Source: Verrucomicrobiota bacterium
Lineage (GTDB): Bacteria > Verrucomicrobiota > Verrucomicrobiia > Verrucomicrobiales > DEV007
Length of the DNA: 22,761 nucleotides
Direction of reading: 5' to 3'
NCBI GenBank assembly: GCA_045046875.1
Contig: JASFYY010000057.1
Span: forward strand, 1-22,761
Each line of letters starts with the position of its first letter. Position 1 is the stretch's first letter. Shown here one piece after another: positions 3,832-22,761 of the stretch. Both the position numbers and the translations under genes were made by a program. The notes under the pieces were generated by a model, which worked only from the letters and a program-made list of their open reading frames with translations, was not told where the DNA came from and searched no databases.

Positions 3832-3845
3832 AAAGGAGGTTTGCG

Positions 3846-4319: not shown

Positions 4320-4329
4320 GAAATATATA

Positions 4330-4361
4330 AGAAGTTAGAAACTAGAAGATAGAAGGTAGAA
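4330..4361. repeat. Intergenic heptamer tandem repeat (AGAAGTT AGAAACT AGAAGAT AGAAGGT AGAA)
   Basis: About 4.5 copies of AGAAnnT filling the sufS-sufU spacer. Confidence 0.7.
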
Positions 4362-4364
4362 TTT

Positions 4365-5576: not shown

Positions 5577-5647
5577 AGACTAAGACAGGCCAGCGGCCTG
5601 CCTATCCCTAGCACGGTTCCAGTGCTCGTGCCGCCAAAATCTACCCA

Positions 5648-6190: not shown

Positions 6191-6256
6191 CTTCTTTTTT
6201 CCATTCTAATAACATCCTCACTCACTGCCTAGATCAAATTTAAAAAAATCTGCGCA

Positions 6257-6706: not shown

Positions 6707-6743
6707 TATTCGCTGGATTTGAGTATAACCCAGATTTCAATCC

Positions 6744-7079: not shown

Positions 7080-7142
7080 TTTGCTCGCCAGCCTATATGG
7101 ATCACTTGTCCCTGCTGTGACAATCGAGCCAATTACCACATC

Positions 7143-8282: not shown

Positions 8283-8308
8283 TTTCGCCGCTAGGCTTCC
8301 CCACACTC

Positions 8309-8362
8309 AGCCATTTGATATTAATTTCGTTTGAAATTAATATCAAATGGCTTTACTTTTTT
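8309..8362 (+). terminator. Perfect 20-bp inverted repeat followed by a T-tract; probable intrinsic terminator of the ROK gene
   Basis: AGCCATTTGATATTAATTTC-GTTT-GAAATTAATATCAAATGGCT, then TTACTTTTTT. Confidence 0.7.
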
Positions 8363-8391
8363 ATGTTATTAAAATAAACATCTTGAGTCCC

Positions 8392-9732: not shown

Positions 9733-9776
9733 AATAAAACTCGACCTCCAGCCCAGCAAACTTACATTCACAAATT

Positions 9777-9807
9777 CTACAGCCTACCGCCTAAACACCT
9801 ACCGCCT
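9777..9807. repeat. Intergenic heptamer-like tandem repeat (CTACAGC CTACCGC CTAAACAC CTACCGC)
   Basis: Four CTA-initiated units just upstream of the MFS start. Confidence 0.6.
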
Positions 9808-9815
9808 TCCCCACT

Positions 9816-11210
9816 ATGAGCAAACTCGATAACAAACCCTGGTATGATGGAATCACCCGCTATCAATGGCTCGTCCTGGTCGTCGCCTGTCTGGGCTGGA
9901 TTTTTGATGTGTTTGAAGGGCAGGTCTTTGTCGCCTCGATGCAGGATGCTATGCCCGATTTGCTGGGGACCACTCCGGATGACCCCAAGGTCAGCGGATG
10001 GAACAACTGGGCCTTTGGCTCCTTCATGCTTGGTGGTGCGGTGGGCGGCATCTTCTTCGGCATGATGAGCGACCGTGTCGGCCGCACCAAAACCATGATG
10101 ATCACCATCCTGTTTTACTCGGCTTTTACCTGCGTCACTGCTTTTGCTCAAGAGCCCTGGCACATGGTGATATTACGCTTTTTTGTCGCCATGGGAGTCG
10201 GTGGGGAATGGGCCGTGGCTTCAGCCATGGTTGCAGAAGTCATGCCCAAACGCGCCCGCGCGATCACCAGCTCCATCTTTCATGCCTCCAGCGTTTTTGG
10301 AACCCTGCTGGCGGTTGCGGCGATCTCTTTACTGATCGGCAACGAAGAATTGAACGCCAGCCTCGCCGAAAAAGGCATCGACGGATGGCGAATCGGTTTT
10401 GCCATCGGAGCACTGCCCGCTCTGCTCATTCTCTGGATCCGCTGGAAACTGAAAGAACCCGACTCGTGGAAAGCCGCACGTGAACGCGCCAAAAACGACC
10501 CTACCCAAAAGCAGGGACGACTGGGCGAGCTGTTCGTCAAACCACAGCTGCGCAGCACCCTGATCGGCGTCACCCTGGCCACTGTCGGACTGGTGACTTT
10601 CTGGGGTATCCATATTTATGGAAAAAACGCCCTGATGCGCAATACCCAGGCAGAAGTTTTGCGAATAGAAAATATCGCGCCCGATGCTGAAAAAGCGGTG
10701 AAAGCCGTGGCCTATCAAAAACACAAATCAAAGATCAAAACATCGGAAATGCTCAGCATGACCTTTAATACCGTCGGTGGCGGACTAGGCCTCATTCTAT
10801 TTGGAGCCATCTCAAATCGTCTGGGAAGGAAGGGAGCCTTCATCATGTATCATGCCGTGGCTTTTGTGATGGTCATCATATTATTCAAGATCCTTATACC
10901 CAATCCCGAAACTTCGAATCTAACCTATATGTTATTTCTTCCCGTATTCGGTTTTTTCACCCTGGGCATGCATGCCGGTTACGCGGTTTATTTCCCCGAG
11001 CTCTATCCCACCCGCTTACGCGGAACCGGCGCAGGGTTCTGTTTCAACATGGGACGACTGGGAACAGCCGCGGCATTTTTCTTTTTCGGTAATCTGGCAA
11101 CTCCCTTGCTGCCCGAACAACAAGCCCTCTTGCTCTCGCCGCTCTACATCGTTGGTTTAGTCGTGGTGCTGTTCGGCAAAGAAACCCGTGGCGAAGAATT
11201 GCCCGATTGA
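9816..11210 (+). CDS. MFS transporter
   Basis: Motif A (G.MSDRVGR), RFFVAMGVGGEW, PELYPTRLRGTG, KETRG and multiple TM segments. Confidence 0.95.
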   Translation: MSKLDNKPWYDGITRYQWLVLVVACLGWIFDVFEGQVFVASMQDAMPDLLGTTPDDPKVSGWNNWAFGSFMLGGAVGGIFFGMMSDRVGRTKTMMITILFYSAFTCVTAFAQEPWHMVILRFFVAMGVGGEWAVASAMVAEVMPKRARAITSSIFHASSVFGTLLAVAAISLLIGNEELNASLAEKGIDGWRIGFAIGALPALLILWIRWKLKEPDSWKAARERAKNDPTQKQGRLGELFVKPQLRSTLIGVTLATVGLVTFWGIHIYGKNALMRNTQAEVLRIENIAPDAEKAVKAVAYQKHKSKIKTSEMLSMTFNTVGGGLGLILFGAISNRLGRKGAFIMYHAVAFVMVIILFKILIPNPETSNLTYMLFLPVFGFFTLGMHAGYAVYFPELYPTRLRGTGAGFCFNMGRLGTAAAFFFFGNLATPLLPEQQALLLSPLYIVGLVVVLFGKETRGEELPD

Positions 11211-11241
11211 TTGCCTGGCCATCCTGACTTATCACTGATGG

Positions 11242-11997
11242 GTGTCGCCTGAAATCACTGCCCTCATCCTCGTTGCCCTGTTCATGGCGGGCGCGGCTTT
11301 TGTCCAGTCGGTCAGCGGCTTCGGCATGGCCATCGTGGCGGTGGCCACCCTGCCGCTGGTGATGGATCTCAAGGACGCGATCGCCCTGATCGCGGTCTTC
11401 AACCTTTTTGTCAGCACCCTCACCCTGTTCTGGAACCGCAGCGGTTTTTCCTGGAAAGACGCCCGACCACTGGTGATCGGCATGATCATCGGCATCCCTC
11501 TTGGATACCACTTCCTGCAAAACACCAATTCCACCCTGCTCATCCGGGTACTCGGAGCCGTACTGATTCTGATCGCCATCAGCGATACCCTGTTGTCGCG
11601 CAAGTCCCACCTCTCGTTGCCTACCTGGTCCGCCTGGCCACTGGCTATTTTTGGGGGAGTCATCGGCGGCGCGTTTAATGTCGGCGGCCCGCCCATCGTC
11701 GCTTACACCTACTCCCAGCGGTGGAGCAAAACCCAAGTCGTCGCCACCCTGCAAACCGTTTTTCTCATCGCCGGTTTTTTCCGCAACGGTCTTATGATCA
11801 GTCACGACCTCACCACCAGCGGACGCAACGACTGGTCTTGGGGACTGGCCACCAATCTGCTCGCCTCCATCCCGCTCGCCATCCTTGCCATCTGGCTGGG
11901 AAAAAAATGTCTCGACCGGATTCCGCAAAATACCCTGCGCGCCACCGTCTTCACCTTCATCTTCCTGATGGGAGTGAAATATTTATTTTTTCCCTGA
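11242..11997 (+). CDS. Sulfite exporter TauE/SafE (TSUP) family membrane protein
   Basis: VQSVSGFG and GGAFNVGGPP motifs, with about 8 hydrophobic helices. Confidence 0.88.
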   Translation: MSPEITALILVALFMAGAAFVQSVSGFGMAIVAVATLPLVMDLKDAIALIAVFNLFVSTLTLFWNRSGFSWKDARPLVIGMIIGIPLGYHFLQNTNSTLLIRVLGAVLILIAISDTLLSRKSHLSLPTWSAWPLAIFGGVIGGAFNVGGPPIVAYTYSQRWSKTQVVATLQTVFLIAGFFRNGLMISHDLTTSGRNDWSWGLATNLLASIPLAILAIWLGKKCLDRIPQNTLRATVFTFIFLMGVKYLFFP

Positions 11998-12079
11998 ATC
12001 AACGGTCAAACACACGTCAGTGAAATCATTTGTCAGCCACCGACAAATGATAAACATTGGCCCATCCAAATTCTATATT

Positions 12080-12643
12080 ATGAAAACCCCACACTTGATA
12101 TTACTCGCCACCCTAGCCCTGCTCACTCCACAGTTGAATGCACAAGAGAGCACCGCCTACCAGGGCAAAGTGCACTCCATCCCCGGCTTGATCGAAGCCG
12201 AACATTGGGACGAAGGCAAATCCGGAGCGGCCTACCACGATGTCGATGAAAAAAATCGCGGTGAAAATTATCGTGAAAAAACCCAGGTCGATATTGAAAA
12301 GCGCCCCGATGCCTCCAATGGCCATGGTATCGGTTGGACCAAAAAAGGCGAATGGCTGGTCTATACCGTCAATGTAAAAGAAAGCGGCACTTACCACATT
12401 GAGATTCCCGTCGCCTCAAAAAAACCTGGCGGTATTTTCCATATGGAAATGAATGGCAAAGACGTCACCGGCCCGATCAAAGTGCCCGATACCGGTAGCT
12501 GGCAAACTTTGAAAACCATCGTCCACAAAAACGTCAAACTGACAAAAGGCATCCAGCGCATGAAAGTGATCATGGACAGCGAAGGTGACTCAAAAAGCAT
12601 CGGTGACATTGACTACTACAAGTTCATCGCAACCGCCAAGTAA
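12080..12643 (+). CDS. Secreted stand-alone carbohydrate-binding (CBM6-like) protein
   Basis: Signal peptide MKTPHLILLATLALL, then IPGLIEAEH.D.G..G.AYHD, GW...GEWL.YTVNV..SG.Y and TGSWQT. Start reassigned to ATG 12080. Confidence 0.8.
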   Translation: MKTPHLILLATLALLTPQLNAQESTAYQGKVHSIPGLIEAEHWDEGKSGAAYHDVDEKNRGENYREKTQVDIEKRPDASNGHGIGWTKKGEWLVYTVNVKESGTYHIEIPVASKKPGGIFHMEMNGKDVTGPIKVPDTGSWQTLKTIVHKNVKLTKGIQRMKVIMDSEGDSKSIGDIDYYKFIATAK

Positions 12644-12681
12644 CCTGCCCTGCCAGCCATATTCGCTTTTATTACACCACT

Positions 12682-12891
12682 ATGAATCCCGACCCACCCA
12701 CCGCTTCACCCATCGGCTCCGGTTTCAAATGGGCCTTCCTCGGAGTAGTCCTCAGCCTGGTAGGCGCAGCCATCGCTCAAAGCATGGGCATCCGGGATTT
12801 CCAATCCGCCGCCCTGCTTTACGCCCCCGGCGGTTTTATCGGCGGCTTCCTGATCGGCTGGATGAAATCCAAAAATTCAGATGAAGAATGA
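12682..12891 (+). CDS. Small two-TM hypothetical membrane protein
   Basis: 69 aa with two hydrophobic segments. Co-oriented with the cluster and followed by a terminator. Confidence 0.6.
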   Translation: MNPDPPTASPIGSGFKWAFLGVVLSLVGAAIAQSMGIRDFQSAALLYAPGGFIGGFLIGWMKSKNSDEE

Positions 12892-12924
12892 TTAGTGCCT
12901 TGATTCTGATTTAACCTCAACCCT

Positions 12925-12955
12925 AAAAAGGGTGCCTGATAGGCACCCTTTTTTT
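12925..12955 (+). terminator. Intrinsic (potentially bidirectional) terminator
   Basis: AAAAAGGGTGCCT-GAT-AGGCACCCTTTTTTT. Confidence 0.88.
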
Positions 12956-13033
12956 GTCCCCGGATCTTTTGATATATTTCGGGCTATAAAATATAGTCTT
13001 GACTAATATTTTTAGTAAACTCTATTCATTCCC

Positions 13034-13897
13034 ATGGAATTCACCTGCTGCAAAAACATCATCGCTCTGAACCTTTTATTCATCACCCAGCTCCCCCACA
13101 TCTCATTGGCGGATGAGCCTCCTATAGACTCCAGCAGCCCCACCCCCACCAACCCAGCGGGAACCCTACTGCAATGGAGCCCCCATGTTTCCGGAGCAGC
13201 TCGACTCAATCAAGCGCTGGTCACTGATCGCCCTGACTTTACCGAGGCCTCCGTCACGGTGGGCAAAGGCATCACTCAAATTGAGTTTGGCTACACCTAC
13301 ATCGATGGCGGTGACTCCGAGCTACACTCTCTCGGCGAAGCGCTGCTGCGTTACGGCATCCTCACCAACTGGCTGGAACTGCGACTGGGGTTTCTGCCTC
13401 TCATTGAAAATGAGCAAAAAGGATTTGCCGATCTCTACCTCGGATTCAAAATTGCACTCACCCCCCAACAAGGGTTGCTCCCCGAAATGGCCATCATTCC
13501 CCAAAGTTTTGCCCCCACCGGCAGCCAGAATTTCCGCTCCCACGGCTGGGAGCCAGGGCTCAACTGGGTCTATTCCTGGCAGATCAACGACACCCTCTCC
13601 ACCGCAGGTTCAAGCCAAGTCAATCGCCGCTTTAACAACGAAGGCAACGATTTTTACGAACTCGCCCAATCCTGGACCGTCAGCGCCTCACTTACCGAAA
13701 AAATAGGCGCCTATAGTGAATGGTTCGCACTGCTCCCTCTCGGCGGCAGTGACTCACAAAACGAACACTACCTCAACGGCGGTTTCACCTACCTCATCAA
13801 CCAAAACCTACAGGCCGACATCCGGGTCGGCTGGGGACTCAATGAACACGCACAAGACTTTTTTGCAGGCGCCGGCCTTTCAATCAGGTTTCAATAA
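13034..13897 (+). CDS. Putative outer-membrane beta-barrel (MetA-pathway phenol degradation-like 'transporter')
   Basis: TDRPDFTE motif, LRYG....LELR, amphipathic strands and C-terminal GLSIRF. Confidence 0.8.
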   Translation: MEFTCCKNIIALNLLFITQLPHISLADEPPIDSSSPTPTNPAGTLLQWSPHVSGAARLNQALVTDRPDFTEASVTVGKGITQIEFGYTYIDGGDSELHSLGEALLRYGILTNWLELRLGFLPLIENEQKGFADLYLGFKIALTPQQGLLPEMAIIPQSFAPTGSQNFRSHGWEPGLNWVYSWQINDTLSTAGSSQVNRRFNNEGNDFYELAQSWTVSASLTEKIGAYSEWFALLPLGGSDSQNEHYLNGGFTYLINQNLQADIRVGWGLNEHAQDFFAGAGLSIRFQ

Positions 13898-13948
13898 ATG
13901 CCCAAGACCTGCAAGGATCATCACTTGGAAAAGTCGTCGTATGAGTCA

Positions 13949-14182
13949 ACCGAACGCCTGATCGAGGGCGCGCACCGACGGTTGATGGTGAATATAGGAT
14001 TTTCGACTGAAGACGCGTGGCGTTTTGCTCGACAGTTTAAGGTGTCGACATTTGGCTGTGTTCAAAATTGGATCAGCGACGAGCTAGGTGAGATGCAACT
14101 GTAGCTGATGCAAGAAGTGTATCGCAGCAATTAGGTCAATCCAACGAGAATCGGTTAGAAGGCGATTTGACATAAATTCTGA
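13949..14182 (-). pseudogene. Decayed terminal cassette remnant with possible attC relic (13949-14033)
   Basis: ATG at 14173 lies 16 nt after the core but stops after 29 codons. GCGTTTTGCTCGAC (14020-14033) mimics the GTTTT-GTT attC end and matches the leading core 6/7. No convincing stem remains. Confidence 0.4.
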
Positions 14183-14300
14183 GTCGAACGGTTGAGGCTA
14201 GCTGATCCTCTGCGAGGGCGAGCGTAGCTTGGTGGATAATGCATCAAAGTTAGAATGGACTGACAACGGGCAGAGGATTAGCTACGCCGTTTTGTTGAAC
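14183..14300 (-). repeat. attC site, family B (118 bp; 7-bp deletion vs other B copies)
   Basis: + strand: GTCGAAC..GGCTAGCTGATCCTCTGC...GCAGAGGATTAGCTACGCC-GTTTT-GTTGAAC. Confidence 0.88.
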
Positions 14301-14554
14301 TTATCGTTGAGGAGAAATGGCTCAGGGAAGTCGCCTATGAGATGCCAACCCTAATCAATTTCCTTGGTTATCTCAAGAAATTCAATAAAATCCTCCGGCA
14401 AGGGCTTTCCGGGTTTTCTGCTCAGCGCATCGATTTCTGACTGATTCGCCCCATCGGCGACAATCCGATCCTCGGGAATGAGGTCACACTCGAATATTTC
14501 AGCAGAGCGTTTTATACATCCAATCAGGCTTTCTAGCTCCTCACGGGCAATCAT
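14301..14554 (-). pseudogene. Truncated SMI1/KNR4 (SUKH)-like cassette gene
   Basis: GANQSEIDALSRKPGKPLPEDFIEFL resembles the SMI1/KNR4 N-terminus. TAG at 14351 follows 67 aa, and the cassette is too short for a full domain. Confidence 0.55.
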
Positions 14555-14558
14555 TCCA

Positions 14559-14685
14559 GTCGAACATCGAGCACAGGCAACCCGCTACTGGTAGCGGGCT
14601 TTCGTGTTCAAGTTGAGGGCTGAATTTTTCATTTAGGTTTTGACTGCGAGCAAGTAACGAGTTGCTCTGCTACATTTTCCTCACT
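14559..14685 (-). repeat. attC site, family A, degenerate (inverse core AAC mutated)
   Basis: GTCGAAC-ATCGA-GCACAGGCAACCCGCTAC...GTAACGAGTTGCTCTGCTAC-ATTTT-CCTCACT. Confidence 0.8.
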
Positions 14686-15387
14686 TTTAAGTCGGTTGTA
14701 ATAATCGTTCCGGACTTCTGGATCCATCATGATCTTGTAGTCAAACGAGCCACACTTGAAACAGGTATGCCATAAGGGTGGCCGAGGATAAAGACCAGGT
14801 ATCAATCCTTTCAATTTATCCCATAGGGTCTTGTGCCGAAATCTAGACTTTCCGATATAGCTACAGTCTTCGCATCGAGTGAAACTGCAAAACTCTTTTG
14901 GCAGGTCAAGGCGAAGACCATCAGCCATCAATGCAAACTCTGTTTTGAGGGCAGCGTCGAGATCCTGAAGATCATCGGGTGGATAGAAAATTTCTTCGTG
15001 GTCGGTCCCTTTGAAGGACAGTTCTTCCTCAATATCGGAAAAAACTGCCAGCAATGGATCTGAATAACCTGTATCCGCATAAATTCTCGCTAGCATATGT
15101 AGGGCCTCTTCTGCAGCAGTTTCGCCGCACTCGTAACTCCTTTGAACCAGCCCAGCAGACTGTTGTGCCTCTACAACCTCATTGACACACTCAATCTTCA
15201 ATTCCTTGCAGGAATTACGGAAATAGGACTCTATTTCCTCCGATTCGAATTTTGGGTTAAGTCCAGCAAGGATTCTGAGACTAGGAGTATCGGAACCTTC
15301 GCAAAGACGCTCGACAGCCCAGTCCACATAGAGACTTGAAAACGCAGAGCCCAGTGACCGCTTCAGCATTAGAGTGTCGGTCTCCAT
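14629..15387 (-). CDS. Cassette hypothetical protein with C-terminal CxxC...CxxC zinc ribbon
   Basis: Start reassigned to ATG 15387, 13 nt after the core. Motifs YVDWA..L.EGSDTPSLRILAGL and CEDC...CFKCG. The C-terminus reads into the attC. Confidence 0.8.
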   Translation of the reverse strand: METDTLMLKRSLGSAFSSLYVDWAVERLCEGSDTPSLRILAGLNPKFESEEIESYFRNSCKELKIECVNEVVEAQQSAGLVQRSYECGETAAEEALHMLARIYADTGYSDPLLAVFSDIEEELSFKGTDHEEIFYPPDDLQDLDAALKTEFALMADGLRLDLPKEFCSFTRCEDCSYIGKSRFRHKTLWDKLKGLIPGLYPRPPLWHTCFKCGSFDYKIMMDPEVRNDYYNRLKSEENVAEQLVTCSQSKPK

Positions 15388-15393
15388 TTTTTG

Positions 15394-15519
15394 AGCGAAC
15401 ATCAAGTCACACCGTATCCCTGGGCGGGAGCGCACGTTGACGAATAGTTTGATGGTTAAAATTAGGGTGAATCATAACTACGGGGCGGCTCAGGAATTCG
15501 GTACTGACTATTGTTAGGC
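15394..15519 (-). repeat. attC site, family C
   Basis: AGCGAAC..GTCACACCGTATCCCTG...CAGGAATTCGGTACTGAC-TATT-GTTAGGC. Homologous to 18932-19057. Confidence 0.85.
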
Positions 15520-15539
15520 ATTAATGTGCGGAATCTAGA

Positions 15540-16199
15540 TTACGGACTTGTCTTATCCCAACAGGTGAAGAGACTCTTAAAATCGTCACTCAGCTTTTCA
15601 ACATCTCCATTGAAGCCACTTTCGACGTCAATCCATACAATCCCTGAGCATTCATTTCCTTTTCGATAATCGAGACAAGTGAAAGCATGGCCATCCGTTT
15701 CGAGTATCATTAATCGGTCGAGTATCGACTTGTATGAGACCAGTTCCGACCCACCTTCCACGTCTCCACGAATTGTTAGCCACTCGTATACCGGAATCAC
15801 TGTGGCAAGCTTCTGATCCTCGAAGGGGTCGAGGGTTATGCCGGCAACGCCGTTGAACAGACTCTCCTCCTTTAGTGCCAATTCGTGGAACCAGCCCCCA
15901 TTCTGGTGCATCATTAATTGACGAAGGTCAGCGGGGAGTTTCACGCAATACTTCTCTTCAAAGGTTGCCAGCAACTTTGGGTTTAGGAGGCCAAATTCAG
16001 AGGAACCCTCAGTCAATATTGACCGATAATCAGCCTTGGCTGTCCATTCTTGAAACCTCTTCTTGAACTCCTTTTTTAGGATTTTCTCGCGCTCTGGAGA
16101 ATATTGATAGCAGGGCATACACATCCCAGCACACCTCTCAGCGGTATCCGGGAGCACCATTGCCTCACACTTTTTACAGGGTACGCGCTCAGTGGTCAT
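15540..16199 (-). CDS. Cassette SMI1/KNR4 (SUKH) family protein with N-terminal Cys-rich motif
   Basis: FEEKYCVKLPADLRQLMMHQNGG and DGHAFTCLDYR......IVWID......LSDDF motifs. The N-terminus has CKKC-x10-CAGMCMPC. Confidence 0.85.
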   Translation of the reverse strand: MTTERVPCKKCEAMVLPDTAERCAGMCMPCYQYSPEREKILKKEFKKRFQEWTAKADYRSILTEGSSEFGLLNPKLLATFEEKYCVKLPADLRQLMMHQNGGWFHELALKEESLFNGVAGITLDPFEDQKLATVIPVYEWLTIRGDVEGGSELVSYKSILDRLMILETDGHAFTCLDYRKGNECSGIVWIDVESGFNGDVEKLSDDFKSLFTCWDKTSP

Positions 16200-16216
16200 A
16201 TTGTGTAGATTTTATT

Positions 16217-16342
16217 TCCTAACGTCGAGCTCACCCAGCACTGGGTAGGGAGAGAGCGGGAACGAAGGGGTTGGTGTTTAAAGTCATGTCGGATTTTAAC
16301 ATCGGGGAGGCTCAGTGCTTGGTATACAGCGTTTTGCTCTGT
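16217..16342 (-). repeat. attC site, family D (inverse core AAC->AGC)
   Basis: TCCTAAC-GTCGA-GCTCACCCAGCACTG...CAGTGCTTGGTATACAGC-GTTTT-GCTCTGT. Confidence 0.8.
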
Positions 16343-16767
16343 CTTGGTGTGATATTCCATTTCCAGGAATGATGCCGAGCATCTTTGAGCCGGTTGGCAA
16401 TCCTGATTATCTTCCAATGTAGCCAGTTTCGAACCTCTCGGATCTCGTAGTCACCATTTAGGACGCCAAAGTTGAGTAATCCGCTCGGGCCACCGTAATT
16501 CTCTACCCAAGCAAGGGTTTTATCTTGATCCAATGGGTAGCCATCGATCCTGATACTTGAATCTGTCTTTACCAGCGATTCGTAAAAACATCTGCTCGAC
16601 TCATATCTAACAAGATCGTGGGGGCGAAACATCCACCAAGTCCTTTTGTTTTGAGATATCCGATCCTGCGTCATCCAGAGGAGATCTGTTGAAACATTTT
16701 GAGACGAGAGAAAATCGCGAAATTGCTCCACCGCTTTGTCGAATGCTGGTCGATCAGAGTATTTCAT
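16312..16767 (-). CDS. Cassette hypothetical protein
   Basis: 151-aa ORF starting 8 nt after core GTTCTGT and ending inside the attC. No recognised family. Confidence 0.75.
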   Translation of the reverse strand: MKYSDRPAFDKAVEQFRDFLSSQNVSTDLLWMTQDRISQNKRTWWMFRPHDLVRYESSRCFYESLVKTDSSIRIDGYPLDQDKTLAWVENYGGPSGLLNFGVLNGDYEIREVRNWLHWKIIRIANRLKDARHHSWKWNITPRQSKTLYTKH

Positions 16768-16768
16768 G

Positions 16769-16895
16769 ACAGAACGTCGAGCACAGGCAACCCGCTACTG
16801 GCAGCGAGCTTTCGTATTCAAGTTAAAGGTTAAAGTTTTCATTTAGATTTCGACTGGAGACTAGTAGCGGGTTGCTCTGCTGCGTTTTGTTCTAC
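16769..16895 (-). repeat. attC site, family A
   Basis: ACAGAAC-GTCGA-GCACAGGCAACCCGCTAC...GTAGCGGGTTGC[T]CTG[C]TGC-GTTTT-GTTCTAC, with two extrahelical bases. Confidence 0.93.
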
Positions 16896-18292
16896 CTAGG
16901 TTTGCCCTTCACGTAATTTTGCATTCCTTGATCCCGCCACCAAGACCGGATTTTCTCTATGGCCACATCTTTAGTCGCAATAGGTGCCTTCTCATCGTAA
17001 CTAAATCCAATACCAGTAAAAATTTGAATTGCCTCCGCAACTGCATCGCATCTGCGAATAGTCCACTCTGATTTGCCGTCCCTTGCGACCGCGTAGTCAT
17101 CTCTGAAGTCAAGTGCGTCAATCAGAAGGTGCATTGGAAATTTTGCCTTTGTATAGCCCTTTGGTAAACCTCCACGTCCACCATAAGCAATCTCGCATAG
17201 CATTTCTATAATTGCCGATCCCCTCTTCGATAGTGGGTTCTCTTTATTTTTAAGAAATAAGCGCTTTCTAATTTCTGCCTGGTACTTTTCGCTCCCGTAT
17301 AGGATCATCTGGCGAAGAGCGTAATCTTGGGCATTAGAGTCAGCGGCCCCGTCGTCAGGTAAGTCCTTTGGAAAATTATAACCACCAGTGAGATACGCAT
17401 CTGTAACTGTTGCCAATTTTGAATTGTCCCCAAGTTGGCACATCAGTGATGATAACTGCGGGAGCTGGTAAGGGTCTCTTGTATTACACATCTCGCGAAG
17501 CTTCTCCAGAACCTGCTCTTTCTGGCCATGTTTTTCAGCGAGCATATCCAGAAGTATGAGAATCTGATAAATCCCTGGATCTTCTTCGATCGCAATCCAT
17601 TTCTGTTCCACTTCTGACTTGCCGCGACTCTTAAGATACCATGACGTGATCGAAGCAATCGTCTTTTCCCGAATCTCAGAGTTCTCGTTGGAGAAGTAAG
17701 ATCCAGTTGAACTCCTCCGATAGAATGGAGTCGTAGTGAGTTCATTAAGGATTTGGATCGCCGCATCCTGATAGCGAAGGATTGTGCGCGAGGAAGCATT
17801 ATGACGCCAAAATCCTACTGAGCGGGTGGGACGTCGATCGTCAAGCAATTTGACTAATGCAGGAATTGCCGGTTGTCCTATCTCTTTGAGTTTGATTGCC
17901 GCGTTGGGAATCCCTTCGCGTTGACCGAAGTCCTGCAGAAGATAACACATACCGGGTTGGCTATGTTGATAGCAGTTCACATTGCGAAGATGGTAAATCC
18001 AATGATCTATTTGTTTCTCCAGGCTGAGATTCTTAACATCCTTGGACTCCCGCCACTCGGAATCCTCCCTAGCCATATTTTCCAATAGTTCGGCCAACTC
18101 TTTCGACTCCTTTGCATAATGACTTTCTGAAAATTTCACTGACACTTTACGAAAGAGCTTAGCTGCATATTTACGATCACCCTTATCTTGAAGAGAAGTG
18201 ACACCAGCGTTGAAGGTCTTCCACACTTTCTTTTCATTTCCTTCACACGCAAAGAGAAGAAATGATAAAACTAATAAAATGGCCGGCCGCAT
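16892..18292 (-). CDS. Cassette lipoprotein, alpha-helical (HEAT-like) hypothetical
   Basis: Lipobox LFAC and HEAT-like AAIKLKEIGQPAIPALVKLLDD. The stop TAG lies in the inverse core. Confidence 0.8.
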   Translation of the reverse strand: MRPAILLVLSFLLFACEGNEKKVWKTFNAGVTSLQDKGDRKYAAKLFRKVSVKFSESHYAKESKELAELLENMAREDSEWRESKDVKNLSLEKQIDHWIYHLRNVNCYQHSQPGMCYLLQDFGQREGIPNAAIKLKEIGQPAIPALVKLLDDRRPTRSVGFWRHNASSRTILRYQDAAIQILNELTTTPFYRRSSTGSYFSNENSEIREKTIASITSWYLKSRGKSEVEQKWIAIEEDPGIYQILILLDMLAEKHGQKEQVLEKLREMCNTRDPYQLPQLSSLMCQLGDNSKLATVTDAYLTGGYNFPKDLPDDGAADSNAQDYALRQMILYGSEKYQAEIRKRLFLKNKENPLSKRGSAIIEMLCEIAYGGRGGLPKGYTKAKFPMHLLIDALDFRDDYAVARDGKSEWTIRRCDAVAEAIQIFTGIGFSYDEKAPIATKDVAIEKIRSWWRDQGMQNYVKGKPR

Positions 18293-18300
18293 ATTTTAAG

Positions 18301-18425
18301 GTAGAACGAAAGAGGCTAGCTGATCCTCTGCGGGAGCGAGCGTAGCTTGGTGGATAATGTATCAAAGTTAGAATGAGCTGACAACTGAAAACGAGCAGAG
18401 GATTAGCTACGCCGTTTTGTTATGC
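18301..18425 (-). repeat. attC site, family B
   Basis: GTAGAAC..GGCTAGCTGATCCTCTGC...GCAGAGGATTAGCTA[C]GCC-GTTTT-GTTATGC. Confidence 0.92.
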
Positions 18426-18923
18426 CTTTGGCTTTAGAGGACGGGTGTCGCGAATACCGTGATAGGGATTTACGTATCCACCCTTCGGATCAACGAAATC
18501 CCATTCAACTGAGAATTTTATTTTACGATCGTCAATCACAACGGTGCAGATTGCAGAAATTTCGTAATGACCAGACATCTCTGTTGAAAACTTTTTCTCC
18601 TGAATTGATTGGACGTGCACTACTGATCCTTTGGGGAGTTGTATAATCTTTCGATATTTTTGCCCGTATGAAAAGAGTTCCGCAATTTCCCCCTCATTAA
18701 CTGTTGCCTCTGGCGAGTCTGGTGAATCAGAAAAGTAAAAAAAATTGTCAAGAATGTAATAGTGGTTGGGATTTTGATGCTCCCAAACACACGCAAAATC
18801 AGAATGAACTATCAGGTCAACTCCAACGAAATTTTTGTATTCCTTTAGTGAGGAAACGTTGCTAACAGAGGAGCCAGAACAACCAACCCAAAACAAGGCA
18901 ATGGCAAATCCAGCCTGTGTCAT
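18420..18923 (-). CDS. Cassette hypothetical lipoprotein
   Basis: MTQAGFAIALFWVGC lipobox-like start (alternative ATG 18935 overlaps the core). The stop TAA lies in inverse core GCATAAC. Confidence 0.75.
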   Translation of the reverse strand: MTQAGFAIALFWVGCSGSSVSNVSSLKEYKNFVGVDLIVHSDFACVWEHQNPNHYYILDNFFYFSDSPDSPEATVNEGEIAELFSYGQKYRKIIQLPKGSVVHVQSIQEKKFSTEMSGHYEISAICTVVIDDRKIKFSVEWDFVDPKGGYVNPYHGIRDTRPLKPKA

Positions 18924-18931
18924 ATTTCTTG

Positions 18932-19057
18932 GCATAACGTCGAGTCACACCGCATCCCTGAGAGGGAGCGCGCGTTGACGAAGGGTTTGATGGTTAAAAT
19001 TAAAGTAAATCATAACTATGGGGCGGCTCAGGGATTCGGTAATAACTATTGTTCGGC
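18932..19057 (-). repeat. attC site, family C
   Basis: GCATAAC-GTCGA-GTCACACCGCATCCCTGAG...CTCAGGGATTCGGTAATAAC-TATT-GTTCGGC. Confidence 0.88.
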
Positions 19058-19730
19058 AACTGTTTTTTCGGGGCCGACGAACGGTTCAGTCTCACGTTGG
19101 CTCAGAATCTCTCGCATATATCGAGGCAAGTCCTCATATCGGCAAATGTCAATACTGTGTTCATATCCGCCCTCAATACTGTCTCCATCTTCTACACTCT
19201 GTATCCAAAGTTCGCCTGGGGGGATCTCATCTCGCCGTTCGTCATCTTCTCCACCTCGCACGATGTAGATCGCCGAAATGAAACCAATCTTCACTCAACG
19301 AATAGAGGATGCCGCGCTCCCATTTTTCCTCGAACAGTCCTTTGAAGTGGATCGAAATGGCGTCTCCGAAGTTTTCGTGAATTGCCTCAAAGAGGCGTAA
19401 TCTGAAAACTCGCCCCTCGACTCGGGCATCTGGAATTTCTACGAGCAAATTTCCGTATTTGTCATGCCGTTTTCGAAGAGATTCTAAAATAAATTTGGAC
19501 AAATCCGCGCGTAGCTCATCAACGATACGCTGAAGGCGCACTTGATCTGCCGCATTAAGGCCGATGGCGTTCATAGTGTGAACGTTCAGTGCGCCCGTGT
19601 GAAATTCAATCAGATCGAGGGAAATGATCTCTGGGTCTTGAATCCCGACAATCGGAACCTCTCCGTCTGGTGAATCACAGCCTGCAATAGCAAGTAGCAA
19701 CAGTGCCGATGCGAGTCTCCAGTGTTTCAT
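19046..19730 (-). pseudogene. Cassette lipoprotein gene, apparently frameshifted (19242-19730 plus 19046-19294)
   Basis: Lipobox IAGC. Two overlapping ORFs in different frames together fill one cassette, and the second ends in the attC (..VAEQ*). Confidence 0.6.
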
Positions 19731-19736
19731 TTCTTA

Positions 19737-19862
19737 GCCGAACGTCGAGCACAGGCAACCCGCTAGCTGGGGCAAGTGTGAACGAAGATATTAAGGGTTA
19801 AAGTTTTCATTTATTCGTAACTACGGGGCGGCTAGCGGGTTGCTCTGCTGCGTTTGTTCTGC
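19737..19862 (-). repeat. attC site, family A
   Basis: GCCGAAC-GTCGA-GCACAGGCAACCCGCTAGC...GCTAGCGGGTTGCTCTGCTGC-GTTT-GTTCTGC. Confidence 0.92.
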
Positions 19863-19888
19863 TTCTTATTCTGACCTTCGGCCGCATA

Positions 19889-20440
19889 TTAGTCACTCAG
19901 AATAGATATTTTTAAGCCCTTCGCTTTAAAGGTTGTGGCCCGTGCGGCGTCGCCTTCTTTAAAGGCAGAGATTACTTTCATTGAAAAACGCATTGTCCAA
20001 TCCCCAGGTTGTAGGATGAAATAATCATAGAGTTCAATTTCGAAGGTTTTGCTCTCGCCTTTTCGGAACGCATGAACTCGCGATGAGTATCCGACTTTTA
20101 TTCCATCGCCAAATACGATTGCTCCTCGCTTAGTGAACGGGCAAACGATTCCATTGGAATCAATAAGACCAACCTTGCAAGAGAGGATCATGTTTGGTTC
20201 GATAACTGTTACGAGACTTGCTGATATGTTTGCGACCTTAATCTGAATTTTACAGCTGCCATCTTTGGAGTTTTGCGGGACGAATATTTTTACGCCAATC
20301 TCATTTGATTCCAATTCTATCACACTTTCTTTGCGAGGATTGCTAGAGTCCGCAGCGAAAGCAGTGGGGCCGTTGAGGATAAATACCAAACTTACAGCAA
20401 CCGCTGAGATTACTTTCATGGAATGGGTGCGATGCTTCAC
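19889..20440 (-). CDS. Cassette secreted hypothetical protein (beta-rich)
   Basis: Signal peptide ending AFA. The GTG start is 14 nt after the core. Confidence 0.75.
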   Translation of the reverse strand: MKHRTHSMKVISAVAVSLVFILNGPTAFAADSSNPRKESVIELESNEIGVKIFVPQNSKDGSCKIQIKVANISASLVTVIEPNMILSCKVGLIDSNGIVCPFTKRGAIVFGDGIKVGYSSRVHAFRKGESKTFEIELYDYFILQPGDWTMRFSMKVISAFKEGDAARATTFKAKGLKISILSD

Positions 20441-20447
20441 TTCTTAG

Positions 20448-20575
20448 GCACAACGTAGAGCACAGGCAACCCGCTACTGGCAGCGAGCATTTGTGTTCAT
20501 GTTGAGGGTTAAAGTTTTCATTTAGGTTTTAACTAAAGGGGGGGTAGCGGGTTGCTCTGCTGCGTTTTGTTCTGC
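20448..20575 (-). repeat. attC site, family A
   Basis: GCACAAC-GTAGA-GCACAGGCAACCCGCTAC...GTAGCGGGTTGCTCTGCTGC-GTTTT-GTTCTGC. Confidence 0.93.
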
Positions 20576-20591
20576 TATGTCTCGATGAGCG

Positions 20592-21224
20592 CTATCGAAC
20601 GAGCGATTCGTAAAAACTAGATGCTGACTCATAGGCACCATTATGGCAATAAAGATCATCAATAAACCATCGCCCAGATTCCTTAACTAAAATCACAGAA
20701 GTATTTCGTTCGTGACCTGAATACTGAGCTCCCTTCCCCCATACGTAGATTACATCTGTTATTGCTTTTGGGTAAGTTCCCGCGACATCTGGAATCGCAC
20801 CTTCCTCGATGGTGGTTCTGTGCGCTCCCCCTACCTTAAAAGATGTCGGAGGTTCCCATGATTGTAATATCGCTTTTCTTCCGCCGATTCCTAAAGGATG
20901 GTAAACATATGGTCCTGGCTGCACCACGCTTCTACCTGCATATTGGGCTTTCGAAGTAGCGATCCTATGCCTGAGATTACCGGAGAAATATTTCCGGCAG
21001 AACTCCGCGTCCCGGAGGAGGGCCTCGTCATAACGAGCGGAGAAAACTCTCTGCATAAATCCCCTCACTGCATCTTCCGGTGACTCAAAACCATCCGAAT
21101 GTTTGCGATCATCCGCATATGGAATATCAAAACTTTCGGCATCCGGAAACGTAGTGCGATCCGACATGCTAAAGTAACAGCACGAAGACAATGCTAGACA
21201 CAAGAGCACGATTGCGTTTCTCAT
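20592..21224 (-). CDS. Cassette lipoprotein, possibly NTF2-like/DUF3828-like
   Basis: Lipobox LSSC, SPEDAVRGF and C-terminal LVKESGRWFIDD. The family call is tentative. Confidence 0.7.
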   Translation of the reverse strand: MRNAIVLLCLALSSCCYFSMSDRTTFPDAESFDIPYADDRKHSDGFESPEDAVRGFMQRVFSARYDEALLRDAEFCRKYFSGNLRHRIATSKAQYAGRSVVQPGPYVYHPLGIGGRKAILQSWEPPTSFKVGGAHRTTIEEGAIPDVAGTYPKAITDVIYVWGKGAQYSGHERNTSVILVKESGRWFIDDLYCHNGAYESASSFYESLVR

Positions 21225-21234
21225 GATTTTATAG

Positions 21235-21357
21235 GCAGAACGTGGAGACTAGCCAGCCGCTACCGGCGGCGGGCGTTGCTTCTGGGCTTGATGTTAAAAT
21301 TACGGTGATCCATAACAGTTAGCGGGTAGCGGCTTGGTCTACGCCGTTTTGTTCGGC
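21235..21357 (-). repeat. attC site, family E
   Basis: GCAGAAC-GTGGA-GACTAGCCAGCCGCTACC...GGTAGCGGC[T]TGG[T]CTA[C]GCC-GTTTT-GTTCGGC. Confidence 0.9.
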
Positions 21358-22143
21358 ACGTGCGGTCTTCGACGTGGCTTCACTATGCGTTAAGGCAACC
21401 ATCGGTTCAATGAATTTACGGATCGATTCGTTCAAACGTTCGTATCCGGCTTCTGAAAGATGAAGAAAATCGCCACTATAGTCAGAGGTGACGTGCCCAT
21501 CGTCGCCAGCCAACACCTCGGCGCTTACAAAGACCGTAACACCGTCTGAAGCCAAGGACTGAAGTTACTTATTTACCTCGTCAATCGCGGGGTCAACTCG
21601 ATCAGACCAGAATGGTCTACGCTCGAAAGGGAGTTCGCCCACAGGAAAGATTGTGGTGACAATAACATGAGCGCCATGATCCCGAGATCGACTGACGATG
21701 TGCCCAATATTCTCCTTACAGCGTTCGATGATCTGCGCTTCGGCGTCTGGAAAGAGCGGAATTGTCTTAAGATCATTGATACCAGCCTGCAATACAACGA
21801 TCCTAGGGCTGAGCGGAGCTAGATGATAACCGAACCTGCCGAGTATTTGCTCAGTGGTTTGCGCGCCAATTCCTAGATTCAATGTTCGTCCTTCAAGCCA
21901 TGTTGGCTCCGGCCACTGCGCCGCTCGAGAATCGCCGTAAAAGACCAGAGCGAGATTTTCCGGCGAGGATGTCACTTCAAGCTGTCTCAATCCCAATGGG
22001 TCGAGCCGCACGGCATTTGCTTCGCTGTAGTAGAGCTTCGCTCGCTGAAATACGATGTAGTTCGCCGCAAATGCGCCGACCAGAAAAAGGACGAGTAGCG
22101 CACCAATAGAGCGTTTGAGGATCGTCCTTCGTGCTACTCTCAT
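21319..22143 (-). pseudogene. Cassette SGNH/GDSL hydrolase with in-frame nonsense codon at 21565-21567
   Basis: GDSR, GIGAQ and GIND blocks precede the TAA. The catalytic DFLH follows it in the same frame (EVNK*LQSLASDG). Confidence 0.88.
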
Positions 22144-22149
22144 TTCTTT

Positions 22150-22274
22150 GCCGAACGGTTGAGGCTAGCTGATCCTCTGCGGGAGCAAGCGTAGCTTGGT
22201 GGACAAGGTATCAAAGTTAGAATTGGATGACAACTGAAAATGGGCAGAGGATTAGCTACGCCGTTTTGTTGTGC
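22150..22274 (-). repeat. attC site, family B
   Basis: GCCGAAC-GGTTGA-GGCTAGCTGATCCTCTGC...GCAGAGGATTAGCTACGCC-GTTTT-GTTGTGC. Confidence 0.92.
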
Positions 22275-22281
22275 TCCGAAT

Positions 22282-22608
22282 TCAGTTTGACGTAATTGCG
22301 GAATTAACAGCCGAAATGGTATTAGTTGATTTATCAATCGTAATCGACACAATCAATCCCTGTTCAGAATACTGCTTCGTTTGATAATCAAAAATATAAA
22401 TAGACCTTCCATTCACTGACTCGTATTTGTCGGCTTTAGATAAAAAGGTTTGAAACTCATCTGCGCTACTTCCAATCGGAAACAGCTTCGCAAGCCGAAT
22501 TTCGAACCCTGAATCACTATAAGTCTCGCAACATGCGTGAAATTTACTTTCATAATTTTGAGAGCACGAGCATACTAAGATCAGTGACAATAAGAGAAGC
22601 TTATTCAT
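22282..22608 (-). CDS. Cassette small hypothetical lipoprotein
   Basis: MNKLLLLSLILVCSC lipobox-like start. The ATG is 13 nt after the core. Confidence 0.78.
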   Translation of the reverse strand: MNKLLLLSLILVCSCSQNYESKFHACCETYSDSGFEIRLAKLFPIGSSADEFQTFLSKADKYESVNGRSIYIFDYQTKQYSEQGLIVSITIDKSTNTISAVNSAITSN

Positions 22609-22614
22609 TTATTG

Positions 22615-22696
22615 GCACAACGTCGAGCACAGGCAACCCGCTACTGGCAGCGAGCTTTCGTGTTCAAGTTGAGGGTTAAAGTTTTCATTTAGATTT
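22615..22696 (-). repeat. attC site, family A, interrupted in its loop by a group II intron
   Basis: Aligns with 16769-16850 up to ...CATTTAGATTT, then similarity stops abruptly. Confidence 0.9.
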
Positions 22697-22761
22697 GTAG
22701 AGTAGGGACGGCTCCGACTTGGAGCCATCCCCCTCATCAAACCGGACGTGCGGTTCTCCCG
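22697..22761 (-). mobile_element. Group II intron 3' end (distal domain V and domain VI)
   Basis: The minus strand reads CGGGAGAACCGC-AC-GTCCGGTTT (DV with AC bulge), GAT, then the DVI stem GAG-GGGGATGGCTCC-AAGTC-GGAGCCGTCCCT-[A]-CTC-TAC with a bulged branch A and an AY end. Confidence 0.9.

What the first reader, a model, noticed from the sequence alone, without database searches (positions are those of the whole stretch)
22615..22761. Group II intron inserted in the attC loop, on the same strand as the cassettes
Seen: the last family-A attC breaks at 22696/22697 and is joined to a DV/DVI intron end (...CCCTACTCTAC|AAATCTAAATG on the minus strand). Established: classical IIC-attC introns insert antisense to cassettes, into the bottom strand beside the inverse core, and have a shortened DV. 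Here the intron is co-oriented, sits in the variable loop 82 nt from the core end, and the visible DV half looks full-length (non-IIC). Inference: this is a separate intron lineage that uses a repeated attC family as a multi-copy homing site. It would splice out of the array transcript while blocking excision at that attC in DNA. Four other family-A copies in the window are unoccupied candidate targets.
Basis: partly seen in the sequence, partly recalled or inferred. Interest (0 to 1): 0.85.

Follow-up and report, generated by a model that had tools for sequence, protein, structure and literature searches.

The report
Sense-strand attC-homing group II intron
The window ends inside a mobile self-splicing intron that has copied itself, pointing the same way as the genes, into one fixed spot in the loop of this bacterium's integron recombination sites, a habit so far described in detail only for a different intron class on the opposite strand.

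Summary
Confirmed. Bases 22697-22761 (minus strand) are the last 65 nt of a group II intron (DV 3' half and DVI), joined at 22696/22697 to the loop of a family-A attC, in the same direction as the cassettes. The window is a whole contig, so the intron body and far junction are not assembled in this genome.

Related DNA supplies them. Near-identical introns (98-100% over the last 65 nt) sit at the same attC position in 7 sites whose 3' flanks are only 60-81% alike: 2 in this genome, 4 in two same-genus genomes, 1 on a metagenome contig. All 3 visible 5' junctions carry the missing attC arm.

The complete copy (L082) is 1967 nt and encodes an intact 439-aa RT/maturase without an endonuclease domain. 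The ribozyme is not IIC: it has an AGC triad, a 5-nt DV loop, a 5-7 bp EBS1-IBS1 pairing that covaries with its targets, and no match to the Rfam models that IIC anchors hit. It looks IIB-like and resembles classes E/F, but the class is not settled.

One paper reports IIB introns in integrons. Fixed-site homing into the attC loop was not found in print. The scan noted sense-strand attC introns of other lineages before, none with this protein. Splicing and any block to cassette excision are untested.

The parts
22697..22761 (-). Last 65 nt of the group II intron: 3' half of domain V, then domain VI with bulged A 7 nt from the 3' splice site, ending ...CUACUCUAC. Cut off by the contig end.
   Evidence: RF00029 24.5 bits, truncated. 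98-100% identical to 6 other copies. The full DV/DVI of the C26 copy scores 50.4 bits.
22614..22696 (-). 3' exon: the remaining part of the interrupted family-A attC (loop segment, 3' arm, R' core GTTGTGC at 22621-22615).
   Evidence: alignment with intact copies; repeat family D1.
22282..22608 (-). Next cassette ORF (108 aa, no Pfam match). It starts 10 nt after the R' core on the same strand as the intron.
16766..16897 (-). Intact family-A attC, the best model of the unoccupied target. The equivalent insertion point is 16850/16851 (minus strand ...CCAGTCG|AAATCTAAATG).
   Evidence: The bottom strand folds as an attC-like hairpin, -24.8 kcal/mol, z -3.5, 0 of 200 shuffles as stable.
14556..14690 (-). 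Intact family-A attC. Target variant ...GCAGTCA|AAACCTAAATG (junction 14640/14641).
19728..19863 (-). Diverged family-A attC; its target region is poorly conserved.
20445..20577 (-). Intact family-A attC. Target variant ...TTTAGTTA|AAACCTAAATG (junction 20529/20530).
13925..14045 (-). Terminal attC of the array, unoccupied here (...CTTCAGTCG|AAAATCC, junction 14003/14004). Its 3' half and the chromosomal flank are near-identical to the 3' exon of the complete intron copy on L082.
14351..22608 (-). Cassette array: 13 ORFs on the minus strand separated by attC-like repeats of at least three families. 11 of the 13 have no Pfam match.

Best explanation
The window's right end is the 3' end of a retromobile group II intron lineage of Verrucomicrobiales that homes into integron attC sites. 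It inserts into the top (cassette-sense) strand at one fixed position of the variable terminal loop, about 12 nt 3' of the central stem's 5' arm and 76-82 nt upstream of the R' core.

Shown here:
- The intron is real.
- It is co-oriented with the cassettes.
- Near-identical copies occupy the same position in diverged attCs.
- The complete copy encodes an intact RT/maturase without an endonuclease domain.
- An EBS1 loop in domain I pairs with the last 5-7 nt of the 5' exon and covaries with it.
- The ribozyme lacks the IIC hallmarks.

Inferred:
- The target is chosen mainly by EBS1-IBS1 pairing, with a weak 4-5 bp EBS2-IBS2 pairing.
- Because the IEP lacks an endonuclease domain, cDNA synthesis is primed by nascent strands at a replication fork, as established for other En-less introns.
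- Because the intron is transcribed with the array, it can splice out of the cassette transcript and costs little.
- In DNA, the roughly 2 kb insert separates the two attC arms, so the bottom-strand hairpin cannot form and that cassette boundary is frozen.
- ORF-deleted copies depend on the IEP supplied in trans.
For: Intron identity: RF00029 hits at 24.5 bits (truncated) and 50.4 bits for the C26 copy. The DV/DVI fold is -49.6 kcal/mol, z -5.8, 0 of 200 shuffles.

Site specificity: 7 of 7 copies with a 3' flank sit at ...CTCTAC|AAA[T/C]... of attC-like sequence. The intron's last 65 nt are 98-100% identical, while the 85-nt 3' exons are 60-81% identical, median 68%. Six of the 7 exons end in an (A/G)CGTT core 75-82 nt downstream.

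5' junctions: 3 of 3 carry an attC 5' arm. Contigs of run X3 join the L082 5' exon directly to ...CATTTAGATTT exactly at the intron's first base, giving empty sites (table 7). The G137 halves form 33 bridging pairs.

Complete copy L082: 1967 nt, with a 439-aa IEP carrying RVT_1 and GIIM and nothing beyond; TIGR04416 scores 362.9 bits.

EBS1, in the terminal loop of a DId hairpin:
- G137: CGACUC with GAGUUG.
- L082: UGACU with AGUCA.
- Sister lineage: UGACCCC with GGGGUCA.

Non-IIC features:
- AGC triad, and a 4-bp distal DV stem with a 5-nt loop. The two IIC anchors have CGC and 3 bp with a 4-nt loop; the criteria come from PMC1702495 passages.
- Relatives hit RF02005 (50.8, 44.2, 31.5 and 23.2 bits). 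The IIC-attC anchor from a class 1 integron hits RF02001 at 134.9 bits and RF01998 at 65.4 bits.
- In the IEP tree, pairing with the IIC-attC anchor is rejected, AU p 0.0004.

Integron context: integron integrase matches in the genome of 357.7 and 269.4 bits against a cut-off of 265; a cassette-like array; an attC fold with z -3.5.
Against: - Only 65 nt of the window's own copy is visible. Its body, its 5' junction, and whether it is full-length or ORF-deleted are unknown. No RT or maturase gene is in the 94.7%-complete assembly.
- No integrase lies on this contig, and no curated attC model was available. The attC call rests on repeat structure, folds and context.
- The class is unsettled. The best solved-structure matches are IIC RTs (188 and 181 bits, against 153 for TeI4h and 125 for LtrA). 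A position as sister to the IIC clade is not rejected (p 0.30). L082's own RF02005 score (23.2 bits) is below the gathering score of 49.
- The EBS2-IBS2 pairing is only 4-5 bp, was read by eye in 3 sites, and fits the window's intact site 16851 at only 3 of 4 positions.
- The intron starts G[U/C]ACG, not GUGYG.
- One occupied site (L082) has non-complementary arms (0 bridging pairs), so not every copy sits in an intact attC.
- There are no data on transcription or splicing.
Confidence: 0.85

Rival explanations
1. It is an ordinary class C (IIC or IIC-attC) intron that happens to lie in the sense orientation, like the unusual top-strand IIC intron reported in an Enterobacter cloacae integron.
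For: The best PDB sequence matches of the IEP are IIC RTs (188 and 181 bits). The IEP is short and lacks an endonuclease domain, like class C. The AU test does not reject a position as sister to the two IIC anchors (p 0.30). PMC7923331 cites a top-strand IIC case.
Against: - The DV has AGC, not CGC, and a 4-bp distal stem with a 5-nt loop (against the criteria).
- EBS1-IBS1 is 5-7 bp, not 3-4.
- No complete hairpin precedes the insertion site; the intron splits the hairpin.
- There is no hit to RF02001 or RF01998, which both IIC anchors hit at 128-135 and 65 bits.
- Pairing with the IIC-attC anchor is rejected, p 0.0004.
Confidence: 0.05
2. The intron inserted once, and the copies spread passively by duplication or integrase-mediated movement of an intron-carrying cassette, not by repeated retrohoming into attC sites.
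For: Integron cassettes move and duplicate. Recombination evidently reshuffles these sites: the L082 arms are chimeric.
Against: - The 3' exons (60-81% identical) and the downstream cassettes all differ, while the intron ends are 98-100% identical.
- The 5' arms differ too.
- EBS1 differs between copies in step with their IBS1.
- Empty sites with the same arms exist in run X3.
Confidence: 0.04
3. The repeats are not integron attC sites but another family of intergenic hairpin repeats, so the intron is an ordinary homing intron in a repeated element.
For: No integrase lies on the contig. The integrase contigs C117 and C27 carry no family-A repeat in the BLAST. No curated attC model was run. The MFE z-scores are moderate (-2.6 to -3.5; -1.1 for the reconstructed G137 site).
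Against: - The repeats have paired AAC...GTT cores at their ends, a 12-15 bp central stem with bulges and a long variable loop.
- They follow each of 13 co-oriented small ORFs, mostly without known families, and the next ORF starts about 10 nt after the GTT core.
- Several repeat families alternate in one array.
- The genome encodes two integron-type integrases above the curated cut-off.
Confidence: 0.06

Closest known systems
Group IIC-attC introns (S.ma.I2, Kl.pn.I1, E.c.I7 and relatives; PMC3001079, passages and section 14 read)
   Same: Group II retroelements with En-less IEPs that target integron attC sites as multi-copy landing pads.
   Different: [quoted passage not shown] They are class C ribozymes (CGC triad, short DV, no EBS2). 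This lineage is sense-oriented and sits in the variable loop about 12 nt 3' of the central stem's 5' arm. It has an AGC triad, a 5-nt DV loop and a 5-7 bp EBS1. Its IEP does not pair with the IIC-attC anchor.
UHB.I2 (CL1/IIB1) and H.ha.F1/F2 (class E/IIB fragments) of Sonbol and Siam 2021 (PMC7923331; sections 4 and 10 read)
   Same: Non-IIC, En-less introns found within integron cassette arrays or CALINs. UHB.I2 lies in the same orientation as the cassettes. The class E fragments have attC-like structures upstream.
   Different: These are single occurrences. UHB.I2 lies just downstream of an attC with no conserved exon sequence reported, and the H. halochloris copies are 5'-truncated. No fixed insertion point inside the attC, no multi-site homing and no EBS/IBS covariation were shown. 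Sequence relatedness to those introns could not be tested here.
Group IIE and IIF introns (Nagy et al. 2013, PMC3753933; passages read)
   Same: Small IIB-like ribozymes (450-700 nt without the IEP), a 5-nt DV loop, alpha' at the tip of a DId3 stem-loop, and En-less IEPs. EBS1-IBS1 is decisive and EBS2-IBS2 is dispensable for splicing. The lineage here has 647 nt outside the ORF, a GAGAA DV loop and ACUUGG in a DId hairpin loop opposite CCAAGU.
   Different: No attC targeting is described for those classes in the passages read.
RmInt1 and other En-less IIB homing introns (PMC4424553 passages)
   Same: Site-specific retrohoming by EBS/IBS pairing without an endonuclease, using replication-fork primers. 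They often sit in repeated mobile DNA.
   Different: The target here is an integron recombination site rather than an insertion sequence.

Membership tests
Group II intron (ribozyme plus IEP) | Domain V with catalytic triad and 2-nt bulge, and domain VI with a bulged branch-point A near the 3' end | tested here: met
   RF00029 at 50.4 bits (C26) and 50.5 bits (L082); the window copy is truncated at 24.5 bits. AGC triad and A at -7.
Group II intron (ribozyme plus IEP) | Intron-encoded RT with maturase (X) domain in domain IV | tested here: met
   L082 IEP of 439 aa: RVT_1 126.5 bits, GIIM 46 bits; TIGR04416 362.9 bits against a cut-off of 300. Not visible in the window itself.
Group II intron (ribozyme plus IEP) | 5' end GUGYG | tested here: not met
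   All five aligned relatives start G[U/C]ACGCC. This is a variant of the consensus; the boundary is fixed by the empty-site contigs.
Group IIC / IIC-attC introns | DV with CGC triad and a distal stem 2 bp shorter than in IIA/IIB (PMC1702495) | tested here: not met
   AGC triad; 4-bp distal stem with a 5-nt loop. The IIC anchors L083 and L089 show CGC and 3 bp with a 4-nt loop.
Group IIC / IIC-attC introns | IBS1-EBS1 of only 3-4 bp, no EBS2, and a complete stem-loop in the 5' exon | tested here: not met
   EBS1 pairs 5-7 bp with covariation. The intron splits the hairpin instead of following it. EBS2 is only a tentative 4-5 bp.
Group IIC / IIC-attC introns | Insertion into the attC bottom strand, antisense to the cassettes (PMC3001079) | tested here: not met
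   The intron is on the cassette-sense strand in the window, C26, G137 and L082.
Group IIC / IIC-attC introns | IEP inside the IIC-attC clade | tested here: not met
   In the 13-IEP tree the two IIC-type anchors form a clade at 100/99 that excludes it. Pairing with the IIC-attC anchor is rejected, p-AU 0.0004; sister to both IIC anchors is not rejected, p 0.30. The sample is small and holds no curated class references.
Group IIE/IIF (IIB-like) introns | 5-nt loop in DV instead of a tetraloop (PMC3753933) | tested here: met
   GAGAA loop in all copies.
Group IIE/IIF (IIB-like) introns | alpha' at the tip of a stem-loop in DId3 | tested here: inconclusive
   ACUUGG lies in the loop of the hairpin after EBS1 and is complementary to CCAAGU upstream. 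This was read by eye, and the MFE folds of that segment are not significant.
Group IIE/IIF (IIB-like) introns | 450-700 nt without the IEP; IEP without En domain | tested here: met
   1967 nt minus the 1320-nt ORF leaves 647 nt. Pfam finds only RVT_1 and GIIM.
Group IIE/IIF (IIB-like) introns | IEP groups with class E or F references | not testable with these tools
   No class E/F reference sequences could be fetched. A B. thuringiensis plasmid intron shares the RF02005 match (104 bits), but its class is not known to me from any call.
Integron attC site | Imperfect inverted repeat with paired R''/R' cores, bulged stem and variable terminal loop, folding as a single-strand hairpin | tested here: met
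   Folds of three of the four intact family-A copies (16766, 20445, 14556): z -2.6 to -3.5, 0-2 of 200 shuffles as stable. AAC...GTT ends.
Integron attC site | Separates promoterless, co-oriented cassettes; integron integrase present | tested here: met
   13 minus-strand ORFs with attC-like repeats between them. TIGR02249 at 357.7 and 269.4 bits elsewhere in the genome, not on this contig.
Integron attC site | Recombined by IntI | not testable with these tools
   Needs an assay.

The most novel reading that the evidence does not exclude
attC loops are a general landing pad that several unrelated group II intron classes have learned to read by base pairing. This lineage also remodels its host integron in three ways. 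Its EBS1 variants (CGACU and UGACU) track the attC variants present in the array. Its insertion freezes cassette boundaries by splitting the hairpin. Recombination between copies deletes or fuses cassettes, leaving chimeric attCs such as the one on L082, whose 3' half is the window's terminal attC while its 5' arm comes from a family-A site.
Probability: 0.3. Interest if true: 0.75.

Novelty: new variant of a known kind. Interest (0 to 1): 0.6.

Why it matters
A review of the field states that attC targeting belongs to class C, and that all other lineages home into ordinary sequence sites (PMC4424553 passages). Here a base-pairing, IIB-like intron uses the conserved loop of a chromosomal integron's attC family as its homing site, on the strand that is transcribed.

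This gives a natural system with several possible uses:
- It can test how introns and integrons, two single-strand-dependent mobile systems, interfere with each other.
- It can test whether splitting an attC hairpin immobilises cassettes.
- It can test whether sense insertion keeps downstream cassettes expressed.
- It gives a small En-less intron with a readable targeting code, and both occupied and empty natural targets for mobility assays.

Tried and rejected
- Extending the window: it is a whole contig. BLAST of the intron end and of the whole G137 intron against the genome found only the C57 and C26 3' ends. No GIIM, RVT_1 or RF02005 match in G000. The family-A arm was not found at any contig end joined to an intron 5' end.
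- RNA evidence: no RNA holder listed among the 24 runs, so splicing could not be examined. No run held more than 0.20 of the sampled words.
- Read laying used contigs only. The joints at 479>1691 (side 30, 'between: not known') and 434>1846 are weak. Only 537>1531 (side 88) is a reasonably supported deletion form.
- RF02005 matched none of the 14 control genomes, so it gave no class label.
- Class labels: AF453998 is not in the collections, PMC2525955 is not held, and PMC8919778 and PMC11701678 gave nothing on class or target.
- All plasmid tblastn hits were below 41% identity, so no close named relative was found.
- The phylum-wide protein search (401 genomes) found no close relative; the best was 52% identity, in a non-attC flank judged by eye.
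- The earlier-findings look-up by sequence found no note on this IEP, and there was none for this genome.
- Considered and dropped: an open frame running through DV/DVI into the exon in C26 (read by eye, taken as chance), and a fold search or structure prediction of the IEP (the family is clear from sequence).

Full report
**Observation.** The window is an entire contig (G000:C57, 22,761 nt) of a 163-contig, 94.7%-complete genome. From about 13.9 kb to its right end it carries 13 small minus-strand ORFs. Eleven of them have no Pfam family. They are separated by attC-like repeats of at least three families.

Family A has four intact copies and a fifth that stops at 22696. Beyond that point the minus strand reads as the 3' half of domain V and a complete domain VI of a group II intron, ending CCCUACUCUAC. 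Rfam RF00029 scores it 24.5 bits, truncated by the contig end.

A second copy at the end of contig C26 reaches 48 nt further and scores 50.4 bits, above the gathering score of 40. Both copies break their attCs at the same alignment column. The attC R' core and the next cassette's ATG lie downstream on the same strand.

**The missing body.** The assembly holds no RT, no maturase domain and no other piece of the intron. Its smallest contig is 3.7 kb, so a collapsed repeat contig would have been dropped.

Searching 401 genomes of the same order with the 113-nt C26 intron end found 99% matches in two same-genus genomes, G073 and G137.

- G137:C69 holds a whole copy on one contig. A cassette ORF is followed by an attC 5' arm, the junction GAGTTG|GTACGCC, 1431 nt of intron, the junction CTCTAC|AAACCTACATG, an attC 3' arm with AACGTT, and the next cassette ORF.
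- Its IEP has lost roughly 210 codons (RT3-7) but keeps RT0-2 and domain X.
- G073 has three 3' junctions and one 5' junction at contig ends.
- A metagenome contig (L082) found with the lineage-specific DVI pattern holds a complete copy: 1967 nt with an intact 439-aa IEP.

The record titles of the related genomes call them Verrucomicrobiales or Verrucomicrobia MAGs.

**Site specificity.** Seven copies have a visible 3' flank:
- G000: C57 and C26.
- G073: C7, C35 and L077.
- G137: C69.
- Metagenome contig: L082.

The last 65 nt of the intron are 98-100% identical among them. The 85-nt 3' exons are only 60-81% identical, median 68%. All seven begin AAA[T/C], and six end in an (A/G)CGTT core 75-82 nt downstream.

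All three visible 5' flanks are attC 5' arms. After in-silico removal of the intron, the two G137 halves form 33 bridging base pairs in the bottom-strand fold. Contigs of one public run join the L082 5' exon directly to ...CATTTAGATTT at the intron's first base. These are empty sites, and they fix the boundary.

Near-identical elements in diverged targets, together with empty sites, is the signature of repeated retrohoming. It is not the signature of duplication of one occupied cassette.

**How the site is read.** The Rfam alignment and the alignment of five relatives place a hairpin in domain I whose terminal loop is complementary to the end of the 5' exon:

| Copy | EBS1 loop | 5' exon end (IBS1) |
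|---|---|---|
| G137 | CGACUC | GAGUUG |
| L082 | UGACU | AGUCA |
| Sister lineage (L052, L078; 73-79% identical) | UGACCCC | GGGGUCA |

The sister lineage's target is not an attC. This three-way covariation identifies the loop as EBS1.

Both attC-type EBS1 variants match target variants present in the window: CGACT at 16851 and 14004, and TGACT at 14641. A GGCG(A) stretch in the internal loop upstream can pair with positions -12 to -9 of all three 5' exons (4-5 bp with G-U pairs). I treat that EBS2 as tentative.

The IEP has RVT_1 and GIIM and nothing further, so it lacks the endonuclease domain. For such introns the review states that primers come from the replication fork (PMC4424553 passages). 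That step is inferred here.

**Class.** The IIC criteria come from passages of PMC1702495: a CGC triad, a DV distal stem 2 bp shorter, 3-4 bp of EBS1, no EBS2, and a stem-loop in the 5' exon.

- This lineage has AGC, a 4-bp distal stem with a 5-nt GAGAA loop, and a 5-7 bp EBS1. It splits the hairpin rather than following it.
- As an anchor I took an intron lying antisense between arr-2 and aac(6')-Ib next to intI1 on a Klebsiella plasmid. This is the arrangement PMC3001079 lists for Kl.pn.I1.
- That anchor and a Lactiplantibacillus intron hit RF02001 and RF01998 strongly and show CGC with a 3-bp distal stem.
- The present family hits only RF02005: 50.8 bits for L070, falling to 23.2 bits for L082, which is below the cut-off.
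- In a 13-IEP maximum-likelihood tree the two IIC-type IEPs form a 100/99 clade that excludes the L082 IEP, whose own position is unresolved.
- Forcing it to pair with the IIC-attC anchor is rejected (p-AU 0.0004). Forcing it to be sister to both IIC anchors is not rejected (p 0.30).
- The best solved-structure matches are IIC RTs: 188 and 181 bits, against 153 for TeI4h and 125 for LtrA.

So it is not a IIC-attC intron and not a IIC ribozyme, but its IEP may not be far from class C.

Three features match what Nagy et al. list as idiosyncrasies of classes E and F (PMC3753933 passages): the 5-nt DV loop, 647 nt outside the ORF, and a candidate alpha' in a hairpin loop. I could not obtain class E/F reference sequences, so that assignment is a resemblance, not a membership.

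**Surroundings and distribution.**
- The genome encodes two integron-type integrases above the curated cut-off, on other contigs.
- Family-A-like attCs occur at 22 places on 10 contigs. Two of these are occupied.
- Intact family-A bottom strands fold as attC-like hairpins (z -2.6 to -3.5).
- In the phylum-wide sample of 401 genomes, no IEP closer than 52% identity was found, and that one is in a non-attC flank judged by eye.
- A 73%-identical relative in G157 lies between ordinary genes.

The attC habit therefore appears specific to a narrow lineage within a wider clade of ordinary homing introns. That clade shares the same DV across Planctomycetota, Desulfobacterota, Nitrospirota and other phyla.

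**Literature.** IIC-attC introns insert into the bottom strand, antisense to the cassettes (PMC3001079 abstract and passages).

Sonbol and Siam 2021 (PMC7923331, sections 4 and 10 read) report:
- a sense-oriented CL1/IIB1 intron just downstream of an attC;
- two 5'-truncated class E fragments in a CALIN;
- a cited top-strand IIC case.

They show no fixed insertion point inside the attC and no multi-site homing.

Four full-text searches found no paper describing IIB-type homing into the attC loop. The combination of integron, group II intron, IIB, gene cassette and EBS1 returned only that paper.

Earlier notes of this scan describe sense-strand attC-associated introns of other lineages in other genomes. 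None of them has this IEP.

**What remains inferred.** Three points are reasoned from the anatomy, not shown:
- that the window's own copy is flanked by the missing arm;
- that the intron splices from the array transcript;
- that separating the arms by 2 kb blocks IntI recombination at that site.

No RNA run was listed.

Noticed in passing
L082 (whole contig) compared with window 13760-14060: The 3' exon and flank of the complete intron copy on L082 are near-identical to the window's terminal attC half and the adjacent chromosomal gene. Its 5' arm is a family-A arm that does not pair with that 3' half: 0 bridging pairs, against 33 in G137. This chimeric attC would be expected from recombination between two intron copies deleting the cassettes between them.
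   Followed up: partly
L052 (G073:C45) minus strand, upstream of the intron; also L078: The sister intron lineage sits in ...GGGGTCA|GTCAGCATATTTTGAC. Two more unoccupied copies of that target lie within about 100 nt upstream. This is another short repeated homing site, of unknown nature.
   Followed up: no
window 1-14000 compared with 14000-22000: GC skew of the + strand is strongly negative (-0.09 to -0.19) across the housekeeping part, whatever the gene direction, and near zero in the array. GC content drops from 0.53-0.54 to 0.46-0.47. If the skew marks the replication strand, the cassettes, the attC top strands and the intron lie on the leading-strand sequence, that is, on the template of the lagging strand. 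As I recall, that is where En-less introns such as RmInt1 insert preferentially.
   Followed up: partly
L028 6143-6852 (G137 copy); run X2 contig: ORF-deleted derivatives of the intron exist. G137 lacks about 210 codons (RT3-7). One contig in a public run skips 993 nt of the ORF. Such copies would need the IEP supplied in trans.
   Followed up: partly
G000:C117:19327-20271 (L010): The best integron integrase match in the genome (357.7 bits) carries one in-frame TAG. The second (C27) is cut by a contig end. Neither contig showed a family-A attC in the BLAST.
   Followed up: no
L053 and L054 (G008:C73 and C54, contig starts): A genome of another family in the same order has two copies of an intron that is 89-90% identical over the last 115 nt. 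The C54 3' flank looks attC-like by eye (...GCGCGCTCCCGGCCAGCCGTGCC...GACGGTTATCC); the C73 flank does not.
   Followed up: no
window 15540-16199 (-) and 21565-22143 (-): The only two cassettes with Pfam matches encode a SMI1/KNR4 (SUKH) family protein and a GDSL-like lipase/acylhydrolase.
   Followed up: no
window 14186-14307, 18304-18425, 22153-22274 and 15386-15520, 18924-19058: Two further attC-like repeat families (D2 and D4) alternate with family A in the same array. None was seen occupied by the intron.
   Followed up: no
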